From NCBI GenBank assembly GCA_045837725.1, contig JBEWZL010000064.1:248001-312000 (forward strand): a stretch of 64,000 nt of DNA, given 5' to 3'. The notes beneath the pieces were generated by a model. The model had not been told where the DNA came from and ran no database searches. It saw only the letters and a list, made by a program, of their open reading frames with translations. Shown here piece after piece: positions 25,143 to 58,120 of this stretch. The stretch is from Vermamoeba vermiformis (Eukaryota). The translations under genes and the position numbers were made by a program. The number at the start of each line of letters is the position of its first letter. The stretch's first letter is position 1.

Positions 25143-26537
25143 TTAAGAAGACACGATCATATTTTGCTCTTCATTATTATCGTGTTGATCATTATAATTG
25201 GGTATATTCTCATATTGTTCTCTCAATGCACGACGTTGACGACATTTCAAAATGCCGATCGCGACAGAGGAGGCGAGAAGAAGCAACAATGAGAGTGCTG
25301 CACTCACGATGTACATCCAATATGACTCGATGAAGGTGGGTGAGGACGTATAATCACCGTATATTTTGGTTGGCGCTAAAGGACAATCAGTGCTTGTACC
25401 AATTTATATTTAATGATAATTACTTACGATAAAGTGCGACCGAAACGTAATTATTCTTCCACGTGGAACTTCTTGCCAATTCAACAGAGACAATAAATGA
25501 AACGTTTTGAGGAAGATCTTGAAGCAAAATTGTTCTCATCGTTACTGTCGAGTAATTGAAGGTCAGTATCATTCATAGTTAGCTATATGGAAGGTCGTAC
25601 CATGCGAACTCGAAAAGTCAATGGAAAATGAATAGTCTTTGGCAGTGGTTGGCGCATCCAGACCGCGCGTGCACGACTTGCTTCCGATCTGACGGAATGT
25701 GATGCTTTTAAGCGCATCCGAGATCAATGTCTTGGCGTTATAGTTGGCATTAACTCGCAAATAGAGCTTTGAGTCGTTTTTTGGTGCTTTCCATTGAGCG
25801 TAGTACACGCATATTTCTTGATCTGAATTTTCCGAACTACAACTGCTATGCGAGAGTTGCCAGCTAAGTCCAACGATGATATCTGGCAGATGATTCCCTT
25901 GGCTTGTGGTTACTCGAAATGTGCCCGTTTGAGAGTTGGTCCACGCTTCAGGAAAATTGACATCGAAGTTGTGATTCACCATCAAAAAGCATGGATCTGC
26001 TTGCAGTGAGCAATAAGTTAAGGGAGAGTAGATGGCTTACCAACTATTTTTTCTAACTGGAATGATTTTGTACTGAATACTGGCCCATCATAGACGACTC
26101 CAGGCATTGGCACCTAAAAACGTAATCAAAGTCAAAAATCATAAGAATTATTATTTAAATAAACACTAGCTAGCGCGTGCATGAATTGTTCTCGTAATAA
26201 GTAATCAAAAAAACGAAAAAACGCAAATTCAATCAATTTTTTTTAATAAAATAAGTATACCGATGGCATAATACCAGTGTTAATAAAATTAACGTACCGT
26301 ATAGTTTTTAAAATTTGGCTGGTTGTACGTTTGTAACAAGGCAGGCCCGAGATTGAAAAAAGAACCGTTGTTTAGTGACACTTGCACAGTGAATGAGGGA
26401 ATTCTGTCGGGATAAAAATAGTTGTAGGGATCGTAAGGAGGAATAGTCAAGTTTTGGGTCGCTGAGAATGGCCAAGTCCGTCCAAAGCTGACATCCAGCA
26501 TTGACAGACTCGCGATGAGTATTAATATCCTGCGCAT
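25143..26537 (-). CDS. Orphan type-I membrane glycoprotein, family copy 1 (5 exons)
   Basis: Signal peptide MRRILILIASLSMLDVSFG; family blocks PFSATQNL, GPALLQTY, FPEAWTN, QIGSKSC, KDYSFSIDFS; TM then RRALREQYENIP. Confidence 0.8.
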
Positions 26538-26545
26538 CAATAAAT

Positions 26546-26990
26546 AGCGCTAAATATCTATTGTTGTGCGCATCATATAAGATAAACTTGATTATGTCAA
26601 ACGGTAGGAAAAAAGTGCCGTAAAAACTTCCCATGATTTTGCTACCAAGGAATTCTACACAATCTAGAAATATGGCATTGTTATGTCGGTCCTTCCCAAT
26701 TATGTACGGACATTGTATTTGTTTGCCGATTAGGATAGCTCCATTCTCTTGTTGCGAACTCGGCGTCAATTCTTGCAGATACAGATCAACCAATAGCACC
26801 AATAGCACTTTTACATGTCGGATCAATTGGAGGTAACGATAAGTATGCTTAGCACCTTGTAACATCATCATGTACATAAATACTATAATAATCGCCCTCT
26901 GCACAAAAGCACGCCTTGAAATCGATAAAGAACGCACTGCCTCCAAGGTACGAGTGCAGCGCTCGATTTATATTTTAAAACAAATAGACC
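26546..26990 (-). pseudogene. Possible decayed paralog of the multi-TM gene at 29075-30530
   Basis: Short shared blocks (cctccaaggtacgag vs cctccaaagtacgag at ~30373; tactataa) and hydrophobic translation; similarity otherwise weak. Confidence 0.3.
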
Positions 26991-27018
26991 AGCCGATAAT
27001 TGTCAACACATAGACTGC

Positions 27019-28699
27019 TTAGCTGGTCATGGGAAAAGAACCGGTAAAAGAGCAACCGTTGTTATCAGTGACAGTGATCGTATTGGGGCCGGTGGCAGTG
27101 ACTTCGAAAGGACCATTGCTACCGGTTAACTCACTAGTGTTGGAGTCCCAAGAGGCATCATCTTCGAGGAAATTAATATTCATATTATTATTGAAAGACC
27201 AATGTTGGGCGACTTACTGATAACGGCAGTGAAAGGTGTTCTCTTGACGATACAACCACTCCACCAGCTTTCAAGAACGTAGCTACCAGCTTGAGTTAAA
27301 GTAACGGATGTGGTCACATTCGAAGCGACAACTTCACCATCAGCGTTGAGTACGCGATGAGTAATGCTTCCAACCAATGTAGTGCCAGTAGTAGAGATGG
27401 CAATCTGAGCCCCAGAGGTGGAGCACTTGTCGGCTTGGGTGACCTCGATCGAAACTTTAGAACCGAACGCGGCAGTACAAGCATCCCAATTCATAATCGA
27501 GGTAATATCATCATTCTCAAGCTCTGTAACAAGAATTAATAACGGACATTATACCAAAAGCATATTTTTAAAGAGGATCGAGACTGGTGGAGCAAAGATG
27601 CCGATCTCGATCAGACTTACTTGCGTAGAGCTCAGCAGGGTTTGTATCCACCCACTTGGCAGTGTTTGTGGCTTGACTGATATTCATATTCTGCGAGTAG
27701 ATGTGCATGAAGCCAACCGTCGCACCTAATCCGTTCGAAAGTTAAAATTTGGATTTGGAATCCTGAAGGTGTTTTGGATTAATTACCCGGGGCCAAATCA
27801 AATTCAGAGGTCAGGGCATAGACAGTGCAATCCAAACTGAAAGCATTACTGACTCGGAGTCGCGCATTTTTGCCCATCCAGTTGATCGTTGTTGGGAAGT
27901 AGGTAATAGCTCTGCCTTGGTCAATGTCGGAGCTTAATTTGGAACACAGTTAGTAAGAGAACAAAATATAGGGCTTTTCCTTACAAAATGCCGAATCGCT
28001 CGCTACCGCCTGCATTGATGAACATAGCGGAAGGATTATGGTAGGCACTTGCTGTATAATACATGCGCAGCGTCTTGCCTCCAGGATTATGGATGTAGTG
28101 AATGACACGGGCCCAGTTAGCGGTCGGAGCTGCAATTAACCGTCCGTTAGTCTTTGGATTTAAATCCATTAATGGTACGTACCAGATGGAACGTAAACCT
28201 TCTGCCAGAACGTCAAATTATAAGCAGGCGGAAGAAGGTCATCCCACCAAGAAGTGGAGCTCATCATGACGCCAGGACCATCGATGAAAGTTTCGTTATC
28301 GTTTCCGCACATGCGAACTTCTTTGTTAGTGTTGCTACTGCCATCATAATTGTTGTTCCATTCCCATCCGTTAAAACCTGGAGCAGGAAGATTCCAGAAC
28401 ATGCCAAAATCGTTGTCAGTATCAAAAGTCGGTGTGCGACCACCATTGCCAGAGTTGTACTTTCGGGATTTCCATGGCCAGGAGAAGCCTTCGTAGCTGT
28501 TAACAGCATTTATTTGATTGCCAGTAATATCGGTGAAGTTGTACGAGAATGGGCCGAATGCCTGACCGTTGACAAAGACCGGATCAGAAAATTGACCGCT
28601 CTCTGGATTTAATCCGTTGACTAAGTCATAGCATTGCTCAAACTGCGCAAACACTGCGCTAAGTCCTACAAGCAACAATAATATTTGAATTGTGGTCAT
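27019..28699 (-). CDS. Secreted beta-rich protein with C-terminal SprB-repeat-like motifs, multi-exon
   Basis: Signal peptide MTTIQILLLLVGLSAVFA; W/N/G-rich N-terminal domain; LTQAGSYVL and ITVTDNNGC near the C-terminus. Confidence 0.72.
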
Positions 28700-28811
28700 C
28701 GTTGTACGATTTTGGTGAAGATAAAAAAAAAATTTTGTTTGCCGACAAAGTTAAAAAAAAACGGCCGTGGTCTTTTTTTAGGAGCCACGTGCCTGTTTTT
28801 AATCTTTACCG

Positions 28812-28990
28812 CATCCAGACTCCGCATGCACAACTTGCTTCCGAGTTGACGGAATGTGATGCGTTTAAGCGCAAACGAGATCAATGACTCGTAAAAATAG
28901 AGTTTTGAGTCGTTTGTTATTTCTGAAAATTCAGATCAAGCTCAACAAATATGAATAGCAAACATTCCATTGAGCTTAGGACAACGACTG
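28812..28990 (-). pseudogene. Relic of the type-I membrane family, closest to copy 1
   Basis: gcatccagac...acttgcttccga...gacggaatgtgatgc...taagcgca...gagatcaatg aligns to 25653-25730, with deletions downstream. Confidence 0.8.
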
Positions 28991-29074
28991 TAATTTTCGC
29001 CGCATCTTTTCGCTGGACGGATTGCTTACTATGTCGAACATTCATTTTTTTACGATCCTAAATCTATCACTTTT

Positions 29075-30530
29075 TTATCTCGAAGCAAACTTTACATGAT
29101 GATAAGTGATCGCCACTAACAAGGGCAGTATAAACAAGCCGTTGATCAAAAAGATTGGATTGTTGACGGCGGTGAATGTCGCAGCCATAATTAAAGGCCC
29201 AACAAACACAACCACCAAGAACACGAGCCACTGCACCCACGCCTTGTTCTTCCAGTAGTCCGTCACTTTGATGATAGCACTGCGAATGGACGGTTGAAGA
29301 GCGACTGTCGAACCAATCGTGAGCACGGTGGTCAAGATCCAGGTTGAAAATGAATACTCTTCGATGGTCACTGTCTTTGTATTCAAGTTACGTCGTTCAT
29401 AGTGAAGTTTGAACGAGTAGGCTGGCTCGAACGGTCTCTCGTGTGACACGGAGATGATGCTGTCGCACTCGGGCCACACCGGCTGCTTGCTCGGACTGGC
29501 CGTGGAATTGAGTTCGCGCGTCTCGAGTTGCACGGGATTAATGTGCATTTGAAAGGGCGGCTGTGCTGACAAAGACAAGAACGCCAAGGCCTGGCTGTTG
29601 ACTGTCTTAATGAGTGTGACATCAGTCGAGAACACAGGCACTGTCGCATCCGAAGCAGTTTGTTTCAGTGTCACTTTTTGAATCGTGTCGCTGAACACAC
29701 CTGCTGGCGGGTAGGCGGAGAGAGGCGGCGAGATGGGTGCGTACAGACTCACGGTGTAGGGAGAAGCTGGCCTGTAATACCGCTGCGTGCATATAGTCGC
29801 ATAGTAGTCGCACGAGTCTTCAATGCTGCTGAGTTTGAGCGAATAAGCGGCTGTAGCATTGGCGAAAATGCAAGTTGAGGAGCGAGAATAATCGCCGCAT
29901 GTTTCGGTGTATACAATAGCCACGTTGGATGAGCCAGTATATGTTGACACGAGTCCTATTTCTACGTCAGGACGGTAGTAAGATCTGTAATCCAGCTCGA
30001 CGTCATTTTGAATTCCAACAATTGTTCCACTGGCGAAGTAATTGGTGTTAAATGCAATGATGGTGAGTATGATAGCAGCTGTAATGATAATAATCGTTGC
30101 TACTCCACCACTCAGTCGTTTTGATTCTTTCTTTTCATCCTCGTCCAGTGCTTTGATAGTCGGCGTGATATCGATTGCAATAATCAAGTTGCGTATTCGT
30201 GGTATAGGTAGTAATATGAGGGATATAATACATTGTGCCAGCAGCAGCGTGGCGAAGATTGTGTAAGTCGTGATATCTTGGATGCGGTCTTGAATTGTGT
30301 TAATCTCATCGAGCCCTAAATATACTATAAATATCTGCATATATTGTGCTTATTTCGAAATAATGATATGGGCCTCCAAAGTACGAGGATCGTAATTTTG
30401 AAAAAACGAAATCGTATCACCTCTATCTTTATAGGCTTTAAACTCTGTATAAATAAATAACAATATTTATATAAATTAACTGACCTGTACGAGGCGAGAA
30501 TACCGGACAGAATTCGTTTGTTGTTGACAT
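29075..30530 (-). CDS. Orphan multi-pass membrane protein with large Cys/Tyr-rich loop (3 exons)
   Basis: MSTTNEFCPV exon splices in phase via two introns into the 421-aa ORF; 2 N-terminal and about 3 C-terminal TM segments. Confidence 0.7.
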
Positions 30531-30831
30531 TTCAAACGTTCAATCCGATCCAATCCGGCACAGTGCTTCAGCAATTTATAGTAGGTTAAGTACTATTTGA
30601 CGTTATTTGGTAGTGGACCAAGTAGTGGTCCACTGTTCATTTGTGGTGCGAAACAAAAGAAAAAGCAACGTACCTTTCGCTGGTGGAAATTCAGGAAGAA
30701 ACATAGAACCCTTAGAAGGACACCAATATACACGCTGTAGAAGTATCTCTTATTGTAGTGGCCGATGACAGTTTATTCATTAGCAGTACGAGCAGTGGTC
30801 GCAAAAACAAAAATTATATTGCATGGCAGTA

Positions 30832-32160
30832 TTAATACTTATTTTCAGTAAGTAAGGCACCTTGATCGATACCTTCATCGGGTATATTCTCGTATTGTTC
30901 TCTCAATGCTCGACGTTGCCGCCGTTTCAAAATGCGGATGGCGACGGATGCGGCTAAGAGCAGCAACAACGAGAGTGATGAACTCCATATAAATGGATAT
31001 ACATTTTCAAACACACCTCTAATGTAGATGTTCGGTGGCCATTTAACTCGAGGTCCTTCGAGGTTAAAAACTGTCAGCCCAAGTACGCGTACTCTTTCTA
31101 ACTTAAATACAGGGTACTTACGTTGCAAAGAGAACCCCACAACCACCCCATCTTGACCTTTTCGTTCGTACGAAATGATGAACGATACATTTTGCGGCAC
31201 GTCGCGTAACACGATCGTTCTGTGCGGTTCTGAGGGGTACAGAGTTAGTGAGTCCTGTTTGTGCTGGTAGTATTGAAGTGCTTACCGTGACTATTCGAAA
31301 AGTCAATGGTGAACGAGTAGTCTTTGTCGGTGCTAGGCTCGTGAAGGCCCATTTTGCACGAGGCACTTCCGATCTGACGAAATGTCATGCTTTTGAGCGA
31401 GGCCGAGAGCGGGGACTTGTTCCGCGCAGTATGAACTACCAAGAATAGCGTGCCAGTACGAGATTTATCGGAGATTTCGCGATCTGGTTGTGCATCCCAG
31501 CGAAAATAATTACTGCACTCCAAGTCTGGCCAAAGGCTGCAGCCTTCACCTGGCCACCAGAGTGACTGACTCCCTCCTTCACGGATTGACATCATAGCAA
31601 CTTCCGATTTGTTGATGTACACCGAGCCACTTTGTGCATTTGTCCACGCTTCAGGAAAATCAATAGCGAAATTGTGTGTCACATCCGTGAGACATGGATC
31701 TGCTTCCGGAGTTAGTGAGCAAGTTTGATGTGTTTCGATACATACCGACTACCTTATATAATGCGAATGATTTGGAGTCGAATGAGGGGCCATCATAAAC
31801 AACTTCTGGCATTGAAATCTGAAAATTGAAAAAAACGGAATTAAACCTTTCGAAATATTTTCTTAAAATTAATTATCATAAGTAATCTAACAGCTTAAAC
31901 GGCGCACTTACGCTATAATTTAAATATCTATTGTCACGGTACGTCCGAAATAATGCTGGTCCGAGATGAAAAGTGGATCCGTTATACAAATGAACGTTAA
32001 GTTCAAAGGTTGCTATTTTTGGGGTAGAATATGTCTCATAAGGCTCGTAGGGTTGCACTGTTAGGTTTTGAGAGGCGGAGAAAGGAAGATTAGCAGAGGA
32101 GCATACATCCGCGGTCGCCAAACTTGCTATCGCAACAAATAAAAGCCATACTTTGAGCAT
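30832..32160 (-). CDS. Orphan type-I membrane glycoprotein, family copy 2
   Basis: Signal peptide, same conserved blocks and intron positions, tail RRALREQYENIPDEGIDQGALL. Confidence 0.8.
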
Positions 32161-32273
32161 AGTATTAAATATTACTATTGTTGTATTGCTTTCTTTAAAA
32201 ATCCTTTATGAAAAAAAATTAAGAACGCAGAGTTTGTACTGGTACAACTTTATCGGCCAAGTCTAATTCGTTT

Positions 32274-33614
32274 CTAATCGTATTCGTTGATCGCTTCATT
32301 GGTGATATTCTCATTATTGTCGTGTTGATGATTATGATTGGGTATATTCTCATATTGTTCTCTCAATGCACGACGTTGACGACATTTCAAAATGCCGATC
32401 GCGACAGAGGAGGCGAGAAGAAGCAACAACGAGAGTGCTGCACTCACGATGTACATCCAATATGACTCGATGAAGGTGGGTGAGTACATATAACCATACT
32501 CATACCGCTCGGTAGGGGCTATTTAAGAAAAATCCATGTTAGACGTAGTTGACGAAGTAAAAATCCATATTAGGACCAAGTAAAAAAATGCATTTTTCAT
32601 AATACTAATGCACGACGCTTACTTCGAAGCCTTAATTCAGCGTATACATCAGTTTTAGGTCCTTGTTCAGTTGAAATGATGAATGAAATGTTTTTTGGCA
32701 GATCGCGCAGCATGATTGTTCTACGTAGTTCTAAAATCCACGAATCAGTTTAATATGCATAGATTTAAGAATATTACCGTGAGTATTTGAAAAGTCAATG
32801 GTGAACGAGTAGTCTTTGTTGGTGATTGGTGATTTGAGACCCATTTTGCACGAGGCACTTCCAATGTGACCAAATTTGACTCTTTTGAGCACATCCGAGA
32901 GCGGGAATCTATCGCTATATGCAGTGAAGTCCAAAAATACTGTATTAGAATTGGCCTCGGTTATTTCGCTATCATTTCGCAGATCCCACCGATAGAAAGA
33001 TCTGCACCCCTTTCCGTTGCAAATTAGCGTTGTAGTGCCCACTGAAATGGGTTTTATATTGTCTGACGATGTTGCGATGCCGAAATAGCCATCTTCTGCA
33101 TTTGTCCACGCATTAGGAAAATCAACAGCGAAATTGTGTGTCACATCCGTGAGACAGGGATCTGCTGTGCCGTTAGAAAACCAGCCGGTTGATGTTATAA
33201 TACATACCAATCATTTTATATAGTTTGAATATTTTAAGGTCGAAAGCAGGCCCATCATAATCCAATTCTGGCAGGGGCATCTAAAATAAAATCGAAAAAA
33301 AGAAATTAATCCTTTCGAAATATTCGTCCTAATTTCTGATATCCAGATAGATGCTATTAACTTACACTATAATTTACATATCTGCCATAGCGGTAAGTCT
33401 GCAACAATGCTGGTCCGGAGTGAAACACGGATCCTCGAACCAAATAAACGTTAACATTAAATGCTGCTATAACTGGAGTACGATAAGCATCATAAGGCGT
33501 ATAAGCATGTATTGACAGGTTTTGAGAAGCAGAGAAGGGGTATGTTACATCACTTCCAAGACACACATCCACAACCGCCAAGCTTGCTACCACCAATAGC
33601 CATAATTTGCGCAT
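32274..33614 (-). CDS. Orphan type-I membrane glycoprotein, family copy 3
   Basis: MRKLWLLVVASLAVVDVCLG; same blocks; intact splice sites. Confidence 0.8.
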
Positions 33615-33952
33615 TGTATTAAACAAAAGGCCACTATCGTGTTGCTCGTTTCGTCATTTTGAAAAAGCTTGCGATTTTTTTAAGTGTCACCTGTCACGTG
33701 ACATCTTGTAATTTTTCTGAAGCTCGTCAATCAAATAAATATTAGTTACGCTGAAACAACCAAAAACAACGATATGCGGCCACAGCTCAGCACTAGGGCA
33801 TTAATCAACTTAAGGTGCGATCGTAAACGATGATTTGGAGCATAGTATTAACTATTACTATTGTTGTATTGCTTGTTGTAAAAATTTATGAAAATAAATT
33901 AAGAACGCAGAGTTTGTACCGCCACAACTTTTCGGCCAGGTCTAATTCGTTT

Positions 33953-35467
33953 CTAATCGTATTCGTTGATCGCTTCGTCGGGTATATTATCATTATTGTC
34001 GTGTTGATCATTATGATTGGGTATATTCTCATATTGTTCTCTCAATGCACGACGTTGACGACATTTCAAAATGCCGATTGCGACAGAGGAGGCGAGAAGA
34101 AGCAACAACGAGAGTGCTGCACTCACGATGTACATCCAATATGACTCGAGGAAGGTGGGTGAGGACGTATAACTATAGTCATATCGCTCGGTAGGGGCTA
34201 TTTAAGAAAAATCCGTATTAGACGTAGTTGACAAGTTTCGCTATCATAGTAAAAAAATGCAGTTTTTCTTAATATTAATGCACGACGCTTACTTCGAAGC
34301 CTGAAATCAGCGTATGCATCACTTTTAGGTCCTTGTTCAGTTGAAATGATGAATGAAATGTTTTTTGGCAGATCGCGCAGCATGATTACTCTAGATATTT
34401 CTAAAATCCACGAATCAGTCTAATACGCACAGATTTAAGAATATTACCGCGAGTATTTGAAAAGTCAATGGTGAACGAGTAGTCTTTGTTGGTGCTGGGC
34501 TCGTCAAGGCCCATTTTGCAACAGGTACTTCCGATCTGACTAAATTTGATGCTTTTGAGCACATCCGAGAGTGGGTAACTTTTTCTATCTCCAGCAGCAA
34601 CGCCCAAAAATACTGTATTAGAATTGGATTCGGTTATTTTGCTATCATTTTGCAGATCCCATCGAAAGTAAGAGCTGCACCCCATCCGGTCGCAGCTGAA
34701 AATTAGCTTTGTAGCGTCCACTGAAATGGGTTTTATATTGTCCCACGATGTTGAGATGCCGAAAGAGCCTTCTTTTGCATTTGTCCAAGCATTAGGAAAA
34801 TCAATAGCAAAATTGTGTGTCACATCCGTGAGACATGGATCTGCTGTGCCGAACCAGCCGGCTGATTTTATAATACTTACCAATCATCTTATATAGTTTG
34901 AATATTTTATAGTCGAAAGCAGGTCCATCATAATCCAATTCTGGCAGAGGTATCAAAATAAAATCGGAAAACAAGAAATTACTGTAAAGTAGAAATAATT
35001 GATAACTGATCAAAAAAAAAGATAATTTCGAAGAAAGCGCAAGAATACTCCGAAAAAGAACAAAAGTGCAAAAAATAGATTAGAGACGACATTATAAAAA
35101 CCACAGCCGGAGGAAAAAAAAAAAGTAATTCCTTTTCACGCGGACGATACTTTCGGTATTACAGTAATCCTTCGGAATATTAGTCGAAATTAGGATATCC
35201 AGATAGATACAATGAACTTACACTATAATTTACATATCTGTCGTTGCGGTAAGTCCGCAACAATGCTGGTCCGGAGTGAAATACTGATCCTCGAACCAAA
35301 TAAACGTTAACACTAAATGCTGCTATAACTGGAGTACGATAGCCATAAGGCGTATAAGCTTCTAATGACATGTTTTGAGTAGCAGAGAACGGATATTGTA
35401 CATAAGTTCCAAGATACACATCCACAACGGCCAAGCTTGCTACCACCAATAGCCATAATTTGCACAT
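33953..35467 (-). CDS. Orphan type-I membrane glycoprotein, family copy 4 (possibly pseudogene: intron-1 acceptor lost)
   Basis: Tandem duplicate of copy 3; acceptor ttttag of copy 3 reads ttttg here. Confidence 0.6.
34982..35164. mobile_element. 183-bp MITE-like insertion (Tc1/mariner-pogo type, TA target-site duplication)
   Basis: TA-CTGTAA...TTACAG-TA; the paralogous intron in copy 3 (~33301-33312, agaaatTAatcc) has the empty site with a single TA. Confidence 0.85.
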
Positions 35468-35685
35468 TGAATTAAATAAATACTACTATCGTATTGCTTG
35501 TTTCGTTATTTTAACAACGAAGCTTGAGATTTTTTTTAAGTGTCACCTGCCACGTGACATCTTGTAATTTTCCTAAAGCATCAATCAATCAAGTGGTATG
35601 AAGTTATTTAATTTCCGCGAGAAGTACAAAAAAATTCACAATGGTGAGGTAAATAAATAAACCGATTGTTGAAGTGGATGTGGCA

Positions 35686-38600
35686 TTACTTGAACTTAGC
35701 TTGTTCTTCAGGGGCCAATGTCGAAAGTCCAGCTTGCAAAGTAGCAGCAGGGATGGCTTGTTGCATCAGTCCTAATGTGTTGCGAATACGTGCAGTCACT
35801 TCTTCGTTGACCATGTTGGTGCCAAGTGACTTGCCAAAGATCTTCAAGATTTGCGGCAGATTGGCCATGTTCGCACCGAAGATGTGCGGGTGGTTGCTAC
35901 ACGGTATACATTAGTATATAACAACATAAATATGGCCGTTAGGGACATACCTTTCGATGTATTGGCACAACAAAGAGAGCACGGACAATGACTCAGTGTC
36001 GTCTTCAACGAGCGGCTGCCAGCCCAACCAAGTGGTAATCAACGCGGGCAAGTCATTGCCTAGCACATCGCCGTGGTAGAAACAGATCTTGCCAAATGCT
36101 GAGATAGCGTTCTCAGTCGGACAAGCGTTCTCTTCGTCACGCGAGTCCTGTTCTGCGACAACATTTCCGAGTCGTTGAATAGCGTCTGAATATATAGATA
36201 TTAGACTCAAACATTATGCATGAAATTGTACCCGTGTAGACGTACCTCTGACGAAGGGTTTGAAGATTTCAATAGCGTGTTGAGCGCAGACACCAATGCC
36301 ATAAACTGAGGCTTGACGAATGCCGTTGTGCTCGTTGTTAGCAAAGTTGAGCAACACGGGGAGATAAGGCTGCACGTATTGCAATGACAGCTGACCACCG
36401 TGCTCGATAATGTCGTCAAACATGCACAGACCCAATTGCTTGTCAGCGTCACGAGTCTCGGGGCCCAACAGAGCTTGTGCGAGAGGAGTGTACTCGTGGA
36501 ACACGGGCACGAATGTTTGTTTGTAATAGCGAGCCATAATGCCGACACAATCCGCGAGTTCAGTGGTGATCATGTCTTCTTTCTCTTGCAACTCGTCAAT
36601 AAAATCTTTTTCTTCGTCATCAACGTCATCACCAACTTTCTTGGCTGTTAGAACAAGCGTTAATAAGTCACGTGTGAGCTATATTAGTGTTAAAATGGTG
36701 CGTACATTCGCGCTTCAAGATGCGCTCGTGGACTTGAGACAAAACTTCCTTGAGCATTTCCATCACTTCTTTCATTTGTGCCGTGGACATGACACCTTCG
36801 CCAACTACACTGATGACCTGCACAAGTACTATTAGGACCTGTAATCACGTGAAACGTATTGAGAATGCGACTTACTTCGTGGACAGCGACGACCATGACG
36901 TAAATCAAGTCAATGTCGGGTTCTTGTTTGGCAGCTGTGAGCAGATCCGGCAAGAGCCAGTCGAATCGTTGCTTGATCATTTGAGGATTGCCGCCCTTGA
37001 CCTTGCAGTACGACACTAGTGATTGCATCAAGTGAGGCATTGACGCGGCAGCAGCACCTCTGACACGTGTCAAGTTGTCAAGGAAAAATTAAATAAACGA
37101 ATGAACAGCGTTAGTATAATATGTATATAAATGTTAATAAGGATATCATCGTGGTAGTAGAAGAGCATCATGGGCTTCAACTTTTCAAAGCAGTCGTCGA
37201 GGTAAGGATAGAACTCTTCCTTCAAGTCATCAGCGTAGCTCAAAATCATGTTGACAGCAGTGGCCTTTTCGTTCAACGGAGTAGTGTGCACACCGACATA
37301 CTAAATTAGGAAATTAATACAAAATTATTATGCAAGATCCAGTGTTTTGGGCGCGTACTTTATCGCCAACGGGCATGAACTTCCATGACTCAATATCGTC
37401 GTCTTCAAATTCATCAGTAGTCATCTAAATGCATATAATTAATATTTGCGTAGTCAACAAATGGTAAAATGAAGTTGTTTCGTACGTTGAAAGGCAAGAT
37501 CTTCAAAGTGGGCTTAATGCCGACGGAGGTCATCAAAGGCGGCATAACGTATTGCATGTAAGGCACAAAGTCAGGGCCGAGGACCTTGCAAATACGAGCA
37601 TAGCCCTAATAGACATTATATGAGTTAGTTAGCTGCTATGTCGACATAATTTAAATGATCAATATGGATCTTACTCGGAGCATGTAATCGCGCAAAGGAT
37701 CATCGGGGTCCATATCGACGGTCTGTTGTGTAGTGACCAAGAGGTGCATAATGTCCTATACATTGCGTAAGTATAAGAAATTTGCTAAATAATAAGTTTT
37801 TTGTAACGAAAAGATCCGCTCTTGGATTGAAGCTTCAATTACAAATTACTTGCTTAAAGAGTTCGAATATTCATAATAATAATTACCTTGGCGTCTTGAG
37901 AGAATTTTTCTTTGCCAACAGCCATACCAATAATGCTAATAGTTTCGACGGCTTTAGCGCGCAACAATCTGAAGTCCTTGCCAGTAGCCCCAGTCAAAAT
38001 ACGCTTCAAGAGAGGTACGACATTATCGTAGTACTATATTATAATAAATATTAGCATTTTGGAATTTTGAACTGCGATCCACTTATGAATTCTGAATTTA
38101 CCTTAATGAATAAGGTTTGAGCGCAGGTAGCTACGGAAGCCATAGTAGTCAAGGTCTGCTCTTGCAAGTAGCGCATATTAGTGCCCAAAGTGAGCATCAA
38201 CTTCTCCATGATCACATCCAAGAACGGTGCCAACAACTTGCTTTCAAACTTCTCCAACCAGTTAACCAAGCAAGCAGCAGCATGTGATTGGACTCTAGGA
38301 TTGGCTTTATCGTCGAAGAGCATCAAAACACGAGGCAAGAGCTCGCTGTAGTAAGTTTCTTGGAATTCGGGCTAGATCCGTTACAAAACCATTAGTTTAA
38401 TCGAAATAAATGATTTAACGCTTAATTAGCAAAGAAATATTCATATGATAATATTATTAAGACTTACGGCAAAGTCGGTAGCCATTCTACCAACGGTGTT
38501 GGCAATAGCCCAACGAACGCGCGGGTGAGCGTCAGTGAACGCAGTGTACAACATCCTAATAAAATATTACGTTAATATAATACCATGTAGGCATTAAAAT

Positions 38601-54594: not shown

Positions 54595-55113
54595 TCACTT
54601 CGAATTCTTTTCTAGAATTACATTAGCCATAGCATATTCATTGTCGTGAGTAATAGCGACGTGTATTTTACTGATTTCTAGTTCTTCTAATACTCGCTTG
54701 GCATCACCGTCAAAAATTACTTCTGGTCTACCTGCTCAAAAATAAGAATTAGCTCATATTAATATACCACGTGAAATGACTCTTGTATTAATATGCTAGT
54801 ATGGGTTAAACGGATTGTTAGGAAAGTAAAAAATGGATCGAATCTGGATTGGCAATTGAGATTTACCTCGTGGTCCTTCTTTGACCCACAAATCTGTAAA
54901 TGCAACATTACGCGTGCCTAGGGCTTTATACGTAGCTTCTTTAACGCCCCAACGACCGGCTAAGAAAGTGATGGCATTTTTCGTGCTTGATCTCGCTTTG
55001 TACGACTCGAATTCTTTTGGATGCAGAAATTTACGTGCAAATCTGTCGCCATATGATTGCACTAATTTTACTACACGAGGGATGTACACTATATCGTTGC
55101 CTATGCCGTACAT
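54595..55113 (-). CDS. acpS: Holo-ACP synthase (AcpS-type phosphopantetheinyl transferase), 2 exons
   Basis: GIGNDIV, LAGRWGVKEATYKAL, GRP, HVAITHD. Confidence 0.88.
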
Positions 55114-55446
55114 TGAAAAATCAAGATCGTGATCTCTGCAAATAAATCAATAAATACCCATATTAAATTAATTTAATATGCAATTAATCAGTGCTAGAAA
55201 TGTTATGCGATTTCACTTTAATTTAAAAAAACTAACACGATATTTATTTATTTGCTTTTTTCAGCTTAGCGAGTAGCCCGAATACTTACAGTTCTCTATT
55301 CGAGTATATAATACAATACCAATATAATAAATAATCTAATTAAGTAAATTGAATCGTTGTCACGCGTTGAGTGACACTTTAAAAGTGAAAAAAGTTTAAT
55401 TTTCCATTATCTTGATCGCGAGGCCCACACATCGAGACACCAGAAA

Positions 55447-58120
55447 ATGCAGTTTATATTTTATTTGCTCCTAGTGTTGACTTTCTTGTTCATCTATTTA
55501 TACATCAAGCCAAAGACAAGGGTATGAACTCAATGCAAATTTTAGATCGTGATACCCTCAATAATTATAATTTCCGAGCATACCAATACTTTCTTGTACG
55601 CATAATAATATCATATTTATAGTAATCGTATTTAATCTAATTGATTGTAAACAGGATTCTTCTGGTTATCAAAATTTACGCGCCTCAACTGTTTGGAACC
55701 TCAAGGAATCCCCGAGTGTAGAGGTACTCATAAATATCTCATTAAATCATAGTAATATTCCTATAATAATGAAATGAATAGAAGCACCAAACCGAGGAAC
55801 TTGAACCGGAAACCGAAGAAACATCCGCCGAAGAACCAAAGCCAGCCGCTATCAAATCGAACACTTCATTTGCTAACCTCAAAGTATTTACTGGCACTTG
55901 GAATTTAGGTACATATGAGCCATTTAAATATTAATTGCTATTCAATTCAGATCCTTTCGTACGAAATTTCATCAATTTGTCCCGTGCGATTGGACTAACC
56001 GACTGATAGCTTGAATCATCCGTACTCGTATTATTATAGTCCTAAATTATATTATCCTTAGGCGATACAGCTCCTGTTCACGAGCAGATCAGCAGATGGT
56101 TTGACAAAGACGTTTACGATATTATTGCAATTGGTGTGCAGGTAAGAATTAATTCTTCATTTGTCGTACGCTTCTGCATATTTAAAAATTCAAGAATTAC
56201 TATATTAGTCCTTTTTTGGCGACGTTTTCAATTTGTACTGGATCGAGATCGCACTGCATTTTTGATAAATCGATTACTAATTAATTTATTAATAACATAA
56301 ATAGGAATGCAAATATAAACCTGCCCCTGGTTACGCTAATGTCGAAGAAGACTGGTTTGGAACACTCGAAAAGATAGCCGGATCCAATTATTTTGTCGTG
56401 TCCCGTGCAAGTCTGCGAGACTCGATTAGATTGCTCGTGTTGGCTAAAAATGACCACAAATCTAACATTAGAAACGCTGAGGTACGTATAGACTCTCTGA
56501 CCCTGATTTAATATCGGTGTCCGGTGTCATGTTTTGATGACACGTGTCATTTACTGACTCGCGCGAACATGTCAGAGCACGATCTATTCGACGAGCGTGC
56601 CCATCTTCTGGCGCAAGGGCGGCGTGGGCGTGTCATTCATGTACGACAGCACGAGTGTGTGCTTCATCAACTGTCACTTGGCCGCGCATCAAAATGAGGT
56701 CCGTCATTATTTCCTTTTATGGCTATACCGAAAAAACTAATGTATCTCGCGCGCAGATCTTGGCTCGAAACACCGATGCTATTTTAATTTCGAAGAATCT
56801 CAAGCTAGGCAACAAGAACTACGACGTCACGCATCAATTCCATCACACTTTCTGGTACGGTACTTAATGTTGCTATAATTAGGACTATAGGCTATAATAA
56901 TATGATCATAGGATCGGTGATTTGAACTACCGCATTAATATGACCAAGGATGAGGTCGTAAAATATGTCGACGCAAAAGACTATGAGTCGTTGTACAAGC
57001 AAGATCAGTTCAGGTGCGCTTTGAAAATTTGAATTATAATAGCATTTATAATTAATATACTGCCTATATATGCAGAACTGAACAAGAAAAAGGCAAAGTT
57101 TTGGTTAATTTCCGCGAAGGAAAAATCGCGTTCAGACCAACTTTCAAGTTCGACCGCGGCACATTGACTTATTCAGTCACGGTGCGTATAGTACATTCTT
57201 ATAGTAGGCCCCACTAACTGTTAATCTATCGCAGGTGGCGCGTATTCCTAGCTGGTGTGACCGTGTGCTGTATCAATCACTTGACGGTCTCGAAGGAAAT
57301 TTGGTTCAAACTGATTACTCGTGTGTCGAATCAATTGTGTCGAGGTACGTGCATATAAATAGCTATAGTCATATTGAATATGACCTAATGATGTGCTACT
57401 CTTAGCGATCATATTCCTGTGCGTGCTAGTTTCACGCTCAAAATGCCATTGGATCACTTCCCAGTCTCGGCCAAGTGGCACAGATTTACTATCAAGATCA
57501 CCGAGCTGAGCTACAATATCACGTAAGGACTATATTTAGCGTTAATAATACTGTGCTAATGTGTGCCGTAGCAATTTGTTGGGCGTTGTGTTGAACCCTC
57601 GCGTCATCTTCACGGGACCTACCTTAGAACGAGAGCCAATCAAATCAACCATCGCTATTAGCGTAAGTATATACTAAGGACCTACTATCATATCACAAAA
57701 TATCGTTCGTAAAGTCGATATACTATCAATAATACAGCGTTGAAAAGTAACATGCACGCAAAATTTTTATCACTTCAAATGACTGACCGTTTTGTCCGTA
57801 GAAAACTCAACACCAGTTCCCCGATGATGCCGTAGCACCGTTCTTCACGAAATTATTGCCGGGTGAAGGATACATGGAGAATCAACATTTGTTCGTTGCG
57901 ATCTACCATTACCGAGGTGAAGGTCGTGAAGAACTGTTAGGTCAAGGCTGTGTCTGCTATAAAAATCATCTTATGACTAACAACAGCTTCAATGTTAAGC
58001 TCTACGATGGTGGTTTGTTTATTGTAAGTTTCTTGCTGGTGGATCTGGCTAGCCAGCTAATACTAACGTTATTTCTGCTTGCAGGGTACCGTTTCTGCCA
58101 AAATGGAAGTGTCATTGTAA
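55447..58120 (+). CDS. Inositol polyphosphate 5-phosphatase with N-terminal signal anchor and C-terminal C2-like domain
   Basis: GTWNLG, IGVQE, NCHLAAH, WIGDLNYR, PTFKF, PSWCDRVL, SDHIPV across many exons. Confidence 0.88.

What the first reader, a model, noticed from the sequence alone, without database searches (positions are those of the whole stretch)
25143..35467. Diversifying orphan surface-protein locus: four paralogs with variable ectodomain and YENI tail
Seen: four same-strand paralogs share a signal peptide, intron positions and framework blocks (PFSAxQNL, GPALxxTY, DPC..V.HNF, FPxAWTN, IGS..C..GL, KDYSFxIDFS). A Cys-containing segment between WTN and SDxLK differs strongly in every copy, and all end in TM + RRALREQYENIP. 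The locus also holds a secreted protein, a multi-TM protein, relics and a MITE. I recognise no known family. Inference: a birth-and-death recognition or adhesion locus, analogous in logic (not shown homologous) to dictyostelid Tgr loci. YENI could be an SH2 docking site or a YxxPhi sorting signal; copy 2 also has a DxxxLL motif, so endolysosomal glycoproteins are a real alternative. Best candidate here for an undescribed system.
Basis: partly seen in the sequence, partly recalled or inferred. Interest (0 to 1): 0.8.

Follow-up and report, generated by a model that had tools for sequence, protein, structure and literature searches.

The report
Orphan amoeba receptor-like gene cluster
The water amoeba Vermamoeba vermiformis has a small cluster of previously undescribed membrane-protein genes whose outer parts vary quickly while their inner tails are copied between genes and kept alike, a pattern typical of receptors that sample changing prey or parasites, though their function is untested.

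Summary
Observation confirmed. Four 5-exon paralogs lie at 25143-35467 (minus strand; intron phases 0,1,1,1). A fifth is on contig C124, and there are two relics. The genome is Vermamoeba vermiformis (18S primer match). The proteins are ~350-aa type I glycoproteins with no Pfam, PDB or fold assignment. A search of 1.84 billion proteins found only one distinct full-length homolog plus exon fragments from a second assembly. The WTN-to-SDxLK segment is 25% identical against 51-64% in the framework (p=5e-5), with omega 0.6-1.0 against 0.26-0.30; positive selection is suggested, not proven. New here: a ~180-bp tract coding TM+YENIP has been homogenised by gene conversion among copies 1, 3 and 4. 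Copy 4 looks broken (lost splice acceptor, TIR insertion). The invariant motif is YExIP, 12 residues from the membrane. That fits an endocytic YxxPhi signal or a Src-type SH2 site, not a LAMP-type lysosomal signal. Best reading: a lineage-specific family of recycling surface or phagosomal receptors with drifting or diversifying ligand sites. A Tgr-like kin-recognition role is unsupported: five copies, no TIG domain detected, no partner gene. Expression of these exact copies is untested.

The parts
25143..26537 (-). Copy 1 (c1), 352 aa; exons 26537-26298, 26113-26041, 25996-25601, 25544-25428, 25375-25143
   Evidence: Open spliced frame with GT-AG introns; colinear with the single-ORF homolog P0001
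30832..32160 (-). Copy 2 (c2), 360 aa; exons 32160-31912, 31818-31746, 31699-31286, 31229-31122, 31070-30832; tail adds a DxxxLL motif
32274..33614 (-). Copy 3 (c3), 352 aa; exons 33614-33366, 33280-33208, 33161-32778, 32730-32623, 32518-32274
33953..35467 (-). Copy 4 (c4), recent twin of c3 (81% aa); intron-1 acceptor reads TG; probably a broken copy, or a one-base assembly error
25722..25934 (-). Variable segment of c1 (aa 126-196), with the invariant C..C-x2-[YF]-x2-W loop
   Evidence: 8 of 9 exon-3 differences to allele P0002 fall here
31407..31637 (-). Variable segment of c2 (aa 129-205)
32899..33099 (-). Variable segment of c3 (aa 129-195)
34569..34778 (-). Variable segment of c4 (aa 128-197)
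25171..25353 (-). Gene-conversion tract in c1 (TM helix, basic cluster, YENIP)
   Evidence: 97.3% to c4 and 96.2% to c3 over 183-186 bp; run test p=3e-4, third positions included
32311..32496 (-). Matching tract in c3
33990..34172 (-). Matching tract in c4
34982..35164 (.). 183-bp MITE-like insertion in c4 intron 1 (CTGTAA...TTACAG ends, TA on both sides)
   Evidence: Absent from the homologous c3 intron; single copy found in G000
28810..28953 (-). Relic of a further copy (3' part of exon 3, c1-like)
   Evidence: 87.5% over 80 bp to c1; tblastn E=6e-8
27019..28699 (-). Unrelated secreted-protein gene (signal peptide, no family above cut-off); neighbour, link to the family not shown
   Evidence: 90-95% paralog at G000:C64:320.5k and a distant one on C246
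29075..30340 (-). Unrelated intronless multi-TM gene of a dispersed family; neighbour
   Evidence: 8 matches on 7 contigs at 27-51% besides itself counted

Best explanation
A small Vermamoeba-lineage family of single-pass (type I) glycoprotein receptors that cycle between the cell surface and endosomes or phagosomes. Shown: signal peptide, N-glycosylation sequons, four invariant ectodomain cysteines, one TM helix, a basic juxtamembrane cluster and an invariant Y-E-x-I-P; tandem duplication and decay of copies; a central segment released from purifying selection; a TM/tail module homogenised by conversion. Inferred: the all-beta ectodomain binds external ligands (prey or parasite surfaces, possibly glycans) through or near the variable segment. 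The YxxPhi is bound by clathrin-adaptor mu subunits and internalises the receptor, perhaps gated by Tyr phosphorylation. Duplication plus conversion yields different binding ends on one standard trafficking end.
For: Architecture in 6 of 6 full-length sequences. The Tyr is 12 residues from the TM in 6 of 6, inside the 10-40 range given for internalisation signals and outside the 6-8 given for lysosomal ones (PMC4584282 passages). c2 adds DxxxLL. AP-mu family: 18 exon-level matches in G000. Omega framework 0.26-0.30, variable 0.59-0.98. c3-c4 nonsynonymous divergence in the variable segment is 29/155 against 72/685 at neutral sites, p=0.009. M2a beats M1a in 7 of 7 alignment treatments. In the c1 allele from a second assembly, 8/71 variable against 1/117 framework residues differ, p=0.002. 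In water metagenome X5, c2 contigs differ at 54/1222 nt against 8/1393 for neighbours. The model's first domain resembles jelly-roll sandwiches, many of them carbohydrate-binding, Z up to 7.3.
Against: No ligand, localisation or phenotype. The fold match is under the tool's reliability level (Z<8, model pLDDT 56). Variable-segment omega does not differ from 1 (p=0.2-0.9), and its synonymous rate is raised too (r=1.7, p=0.008; 9/45), which fits escape from homogenisation without selection. The M2a omega2 of 30-210 rests on a few codons with multi-base differences and is not trustworthy. The c2 allele shows no excess in the variable segment (3/77 vs 6/120, p=1). The X5 counts use only the 8 records shown, and that metagenome holds more than one strain. 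The stalk is equally variable. The family is small (5) for a surveillance repertoire.
Confidence: 0.45

Rival explanations
1. Signalling receptors: a tyrosine kinase phosphorylates YExI, which recruits an SH2 protein. Conversion keeps one output wired to several inputs.
For: 33 SH2 matches in G000. Glu at +1 and Ile at +3 in 6 of 6, as in the Src-preferred pYEEI (PMC7337045 passages). Asn at +2 (Grb2-type pY-X-N-X, PMC3787023 abstract start) in 5 of 6. Tyr-phosphorylated surface proteins act in bacterial uptake in this species (PMC2199037 abstract). Can coexist with the endocytic reading.
Against: There is a single conserved Tyr, with no ITAM-like pair and no kinase domain. c5 has Ser at +2. 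The rest of the tail is short and unconserved. The same motif satisfies YxxPhi.
Confidence: 0.2
2. Resident endolysosomal or other housekeeping membrane glycoproteins whose lumenal loops are weakly constrained. Duplication, decay and conversion are neutral by-products of a tandem array.
For: Omega about 1 in the variable segment, with 29 of 83 columns gapped. Conversion is expected between near-identical tandem stretches. c4 is decaying and the region is rearranged (inverted duplicate 44 kb away). DxxxLL in c2. The only structures spanning both model domains include the lumenal domain of SIDT1/2 (Z 5.1-5.3, rmsd 4.5-4.9).
Against: No Gly before the Tyr, the Tyr is not at 6-8 residues and not C-terminal. 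No Pfam lysosomal family matches. No homolog outside this lineage among 1.84e9 proteins, unlike housekeeping lysosomal proteins. Allelic excess in the c1 variable segment.
Confidence: 0.25
3. Self/non-self (kin) recognition or adhesion locus, working like Dictyostelium TgrB1/TgrC1.
For: Variable outside, constrained signalling end, recombination and gene loss, as described for tgrB1 (PMC13648343 and PMC12745789 passages). Allelic differences are concentrated in the c1 variable segment.
Against: No TIG/IPT match. Five copies and no B/C-type pair. Alleles are 93-100% identical to the reference copies, far from extreme polymorphism. V. vermiformis is not known to aggregate (recalled); the one literature search on this listed no such paper among the 10 of 108 shown.
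Confidence: 0.07

Closest known systems
Dictyostelium TgrB1/TgrC1 allorecognition locus
   Same: Amoebozoan type I surface proteins in a rearranging tandem locus; diversifying ectodomain, constrained TM/cytoplasmic end (PMC12745789, PMC13648343 passages).
   Different: No sequence homology or TIG/IPT domain; ~350 aa; 5 copies; no receptor-ligand pair; modest allelic divergence; no aggregative stage known in this species (recalled).
YxxPhi-bearing endocytic receptors (transferrin receptor and asialoglycoprotein receptor type signal, AP mu binding)
   Same: Invariant YxxI 12 residues from the membrane; acidic dileucine in one copy; AP mu genes present.
   Different: Unrelated orphan ectodomain; multi-copy and fast-evolving; internalisation untested.
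LAMP-type lysosomal membrane glycoproteins
   Same: ~350-aa glycosylated all-beta lumenal part, single TM, short tail with YxxPhi (LAMP layout recalled).
   Different: No Gly at -1, Tyr at 12 rather than 6-8, 15-31 residues after the motif, no Pfam match.
Jelly-roll carbohydrate-binding modules and lectins (4d3l CBM, Fbs1/2 sugar-binding domain); SIDT1/2 lumenal domain
   Same: Model residues 1-122 align at Z 6-7.3, rmsd 3.1-3.6, ~105-115 residues; SIDT1/2 aligns across both domains at Z 5.1-5.3.
   Different: 5-11% identity, scores in the background range, tied with viral capsid domains; low-confidence model.
Paired immune receptors such as CD300A/C
   Same: Tandem receptor paralogs shaped by gene conversion (PMC12447643, search listing only).
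   Different: There the ectodomains are shared and the tails differ (listing, and recalled); here the TM/tail is homogenised and the ectodomain diverges.

Membership tests
Tgr family | TIG/IPT immunoglobulin-like domains (sequence) | tested here: not met
   Pfam scans of P0001 and of exon translations: no TIG/IPT, nothing over a curated cut-off
Tgr family | Ig-like fold (structure) | tested here: inconclusive
   Model pLDDT 56; second domain barely tested
Tgr family | [quoted passage not shown] | tested here: not met
   5 loci in each of 4 own-genome searches plus 2 relics
Tgr family | Extreme allelic polymorphism with dN/dS>1 in the binding region | tested here: inconclusive
   Omega 0.59-0.98 among paralogs; allelic excess in c1 (8/71) but not c2 (3/77)
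Tgr family | Allele-specific trans-binding of a receptor-ligand pair that sorts cells | not testable with these tools
   Needs binding and mixing experiments
LAMP-type lysosomal glycoproteins | Gly-Tyr-x-x-Phi signal 6-8 residues from the TM | tested here: not met
   Q/E at -1, offset 12 in 6 of 6 (rule from PMC4584282)
LAMP-type lysosomal glycoproteins | Pfam match to LAMP, CD36/LIMP or MRH families | tested here: not met
YxxPhi endocytic cargo (functional class) | YxxPhi 10-40 residues from the TM | tested here: met
   YE[NS]I at offset 12 in 6 of 6
YxxPhi endocytic cargo (functional class) | Motif-dependent AP binding and internalisation | not testable with these tools
   AP mu genes are present; binding not testable
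SH2-docking receptor tails (functional class) | Consensus match and SH2 readers in the genome | tested here: met
   YExI in 6 of 6, YxN in 5 of 6; 33 SH2 matches
SH2-docking receptor tails (functional class) | Tyr phosphorylation in vivo | not testable with these tools
   No phosphoproteome at hand
Jelly-roll CBM/lectin domains | Significant structural match | tested here: inconclusive
   Best Z 7.2-7.3, none at 8 or more among 48,161 chains; Foldseek none at E<=0.001
SID-1/SIDT family | Multi-pass membrane domain (recalled) | tested here: not met
   One TM helix only
MITE | Terminal inverted repeats, target-site duplication, empty site | tested here: met
   10-bp TIR, TA duplication, absent in c3
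MITE | Many copies in the genome | tested here: inconclusive
   1 match by DNA search and 1 by exact TIR pattern (control 2); the search skips very common words

The most novel reading that the evidence does not exclude
A unicellular 'variable receptor, constant tail' system. V. vermiformis diversifies the ligand-binding segment of a prey- or parasite-sensing receptor under selection, while gene conversion keeps one phosphotyrosine or endocytic module on all copies. Haplotype and copy number at this locus would then set strain-specific uptake of bacteria or susceptibility to giant viruses.
Probability: 0.13. Interest if true: 0.8.

Novelty: new variant of a known kind. Interest (0 to 1): 0.42.

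Why it matters
Few phagocytic or recognition receptors are molecularly identified in amoebae (PMC5758549 passages for Dictyostelium), and V. vermiformis is a common host of intracellular bacteria in water systems and of giant viruses (PMC2199037 abstract; listings). An orphan receptor-like family with a fast-changing outer segment is a concrete candidate for strain differences in what the amoeba eats or is infected by, and its ectodomain may be a structurally unassigned family. If the neutral or lysosomal reading holds, it is an ordinary lineage-specific tandem array.

Tried and rejected
Homolog searches: profile and single-sequence word searches gave 1, 1 and 2 hits. No relatives in metagenome contigs (0 of 283 pattern matches confirmed) or viral contigs (0 of 50); introns weaken these scans. 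ESM Atlas: best 0.88, unnamed clusters, no usable named hit. PDB sequence search: one chance-level hit to a VSG fragment, E=0.14, rejected. A weak own-genome hit on C73 (E=0.37) lies antisense to a RhoGEF gene, rejected. Full-length AlphaFold model failed (ectodomain pLDDT<50). Alignment A2 of mixed exon fragments was misaligned and not used. Foldseek on PDB and viral models: nothing at E<=0.001. Homodimer prediction gave no answer; not used either way. Exact look-up of 10 control ORFs found 0 of 10, so no neighbour baseline exists for the second assembly. RNA runs X21 and X23 come from a lineage about 90% alike even in importin, so they cannot test the window's own copies. c3-c4 exon-4/stalk excess (15 N vs 1 S) is not significant, p=0.12. 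Literature searches listed no description of this family; the library lacks most subscription papers, only the top rows were seen, and no supplements were read.
Full report
ORGANISM. The genome's 18S gene carries exact sites for the published V. vermiformis primers, 502 bp apart as published (PMC5057267 primer-table passage). G000 has 43.3 Mb in 309 contigs; the window is C64:248001-312000. The cluster lies between a DEAD-box helicase gene and an importin-beta-like gene (read from the ORFs; names from my own knowledge).

OBSERVATION. Four minus-strand genes of five exons each give open frames of 352-360 aa, with introns at homologous positions and phases 0,1,1,1. Deep pairs among them are 48-56% identical; c3-c4 is 81%. 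Each has an N-terminal hydrophobic leader, 4-6 N-glycosylation sequons, four invariant ectodomain cysteines, one TM helix and RRALREQYENIP. Four own-genome searches returned the same five loci: these four and c5 on C124. c5 has the same introns and ends YESIP. A relic lies at 28810-28953, and a second inside an inverted duplicate of 26716-28882 about 44 kb away. c4 lacks the AG of its first acceptor and carries a 183-bp TA-flanked TIR insertion in that intron; the nearest upstream AG would give an immediate stop. It is a decaying copy or a one-base assembly error.

GENE MODEL AND EXPRESSION. P0001 (340 aa, JGI/Logan, 6 contigs up to 2,723 nt) is about 50% identical to c1 and colinear across all four junctions. 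A single ORF of this form most likely comes from a transcript (inference), which supports the exon joins. Of 4 runs laid, the two raw RNA runs are from a divergent lineage (108 and 162 reads laid, mostly on importin, mostly 95% alike or less). They show loose ends at 26369 (4 and 5 reads) and 31939 (3 reads). Translated by hand, these continue in frame as family-like exon-1 sequence, and the second runs past the intron-1 position without a GT. So homologs are transcribed in the species; the window's own copies are untested.

ORPHAN STATUS. phmmer of P0001 on 1.84 billion representatives gave 8 hits: itself and 7 exon ORFs from NCBI contigs of 4,294 and 5,613 nt, which are alleles from a second assembly. 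Pfam gave nothing over a cut-off for 14 and 4 proteins. The ectodomain model is all-beta, mean pLDDT 56. Residues 1-122 align to jelly-roll sandwiches: a CBM (4d3l, Z 7.2, rmsd 3.4, 109 residues), Fbs sugar-binding domains and viral capsid domains, all tied, none at Z 8 or more among 48,161 chains. The SIDT1/2 lumenal domain spans both model domains at Z 5.1-5.3. These are leads only.

VARIATION. Mean identity over five deep sequences (c4 left out): N-framework 51%, variable segment 25%, SDxLK-DFS 64%, exon-4 start 61%, stalk 21%, TM+YExIP 74%; permutation p=5e-5 for the variable window. The segment still keeps I, C, C, W and L invariant in 6 of 6. My codon models on c1-c5 ectodomains give omega 0.26-0.30 for framework and 0.59-0.98 for the segment; the partition is highly significant, but the segment cannot be told from omega=1. 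M2a beats M1a in 7 of 7 treatments (p 6e-5 to 1e-3). It flags about 4% of sites, three consistently inside the segment, but with omega2 of 30-210 driven by multi-base codon changes; with five recombining sequences this is suggestive only. In c3-c4, nonsynonymous divergence in the segment (29/155) exceeds the neutral yardstick (72/685; p=0.009), but synonymous divergence there is as high (9/45), so an older, unconverted segment explains it as well as selection. Alleles: c1 differs from P0002/P0004 at 8/71 variable against 1/117 framework residues (p=0.002); c2 shows no such excess (3/77 vs 6/120); pooled p=0.05. In water metagenome X5, the 4 c2 records shown differ at 54/1222 nt against 8/1393 in 4 neighbouring records; only 16 of 341 pieces were displayed and X5 holds several strains. 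P0005 is a c4-like exon 1 fused to another copy's exon 1, and an X5 contig joins c3 to c4 exon 1. Both fit unequal crossing-over, or assembly and mapping artefacts.

c1 is near saturation at synonymous sites against c3 and c4 (pS 0.5-0.9) except in the TM+YENIP block, where 41 of 41 residues are identical with 1-2 silent changes. The tract is 183-186 bp at 96-97%; run test p=3e-4 on all sites and on third positions. Beyond it the c1 tail resumes resembling c5. In DNA run X1 the depth in the c1 tract bin is about three times the single-copy level (1703 against ~550), as expected if three genes share it, so it is not an assembly artefact. The result is several ectodomains on one membrane anchor and motif.

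THE TAIL. The Tyr is 12 residues from the TM, has Gln or Glu before it, and is followed by 15-31 residues after the motif in 6 of 6. By the review passages in PMC4584282, internalisation signals lie 10-40 and lysosomal ones 6-8 residues from the TM; the acidic residue at +1 is a lysosomal-type trait, so the fit is not perfect. The same motif matches Src-type pYEEI (PMC7337045 passages) and, in 5 of 6, Grb2-type pYxN (PMC3787023 abstract start). The genome has both readers: 33 SH2 matches and 18 AP-mu matches, counted exon by exon. Tyr phosphorylation of surface proteins during bacterial uptake is reported in this species (PMC2199037 abstract); that 170-kDa lectin is far larger than these proteins.

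MECHANISM AND VERDICT. Most likely (0.45): recycling surface or phagosomal receptors with a changing ligand-binding part and a standard YxxPhi end. Rivals: neutrally varying endolysosomal glycoproteins (0.25), SH2-signalling receptors (0.2, compatible with the first), Tgr-like kin recognition (0.07). Tgr proteins have TIG/IPT domains, act as a receptor-ligand pair and sit in a hotspot gaining and losing dozens of genes (PMC12745789 abstract and passages; PMC13648343 passages); none of this was found here. The protein family appears undescribed in the searches run, but a small tandem array of fast-evolving receptor-like glycoproteins is a known kind of system. Real, unassigned and testable, with no function shown: interest 0.42.

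Noticed in passing
G000:C64:320357-322581 (L041, L042): Inverted duplicate (89-94%) of window 26716-28882, holding a second copy of the secreted gene and the relic; the copy's first exon is split into different frames around aa 80-102.
   Followed up: partly
window 29075-30340: Intronless multi-TM orphan with a Cys-containing extracellular loop; dispersed family on 7 contigs at 27-51% identity, no Pfam match over cut-off.
   Followed up: partly
window 27019-28699: Secreted Trp/Asn/Gly-rich orphan; a late exon has a sub-threshold CBM_35 hit (E=0.006).
   Followed up: partly
L033:2150-2620 (G000:C11 18S gene): Group I intron in the nuclear 18S rRNA gene, making it 2,310 nt.
   Followed up: no
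G000:C309:33071-34564 and 55063-56556: Two inverted copies of an AT-rich organellar-type SSU rRNA on one contig: an inverted repeat or an assembly overlap of the mitochondrial genome.
   Followed up: no
L030:2000-6900 (G000:C124, next to c5): Four tandem paralogs sharing a 'RDPKYF..ILS.LR.F.WD.P' block, BTB/KCTD-like by recall, with divergent C-terminal parts; c5 sits beside another tandem array.
   Followed up: no
window 35680-36300, runs X21, X23, X5: Runs under the same species label differ by about 10% in importin coding sequence, pointing to cryptic lineages; run X24 under that label holds none of the locus words.
   Followed up: no
window 34991-35159: A contig of run X1 skips the MITE-like insertion: an empty-site allele, or the c3 intron laid on c4.
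   Followed up: partly
window 26311-26967: 219-aa open frame upstream of c1 with no Pfam match; gene status unclear.
   Followed up: no
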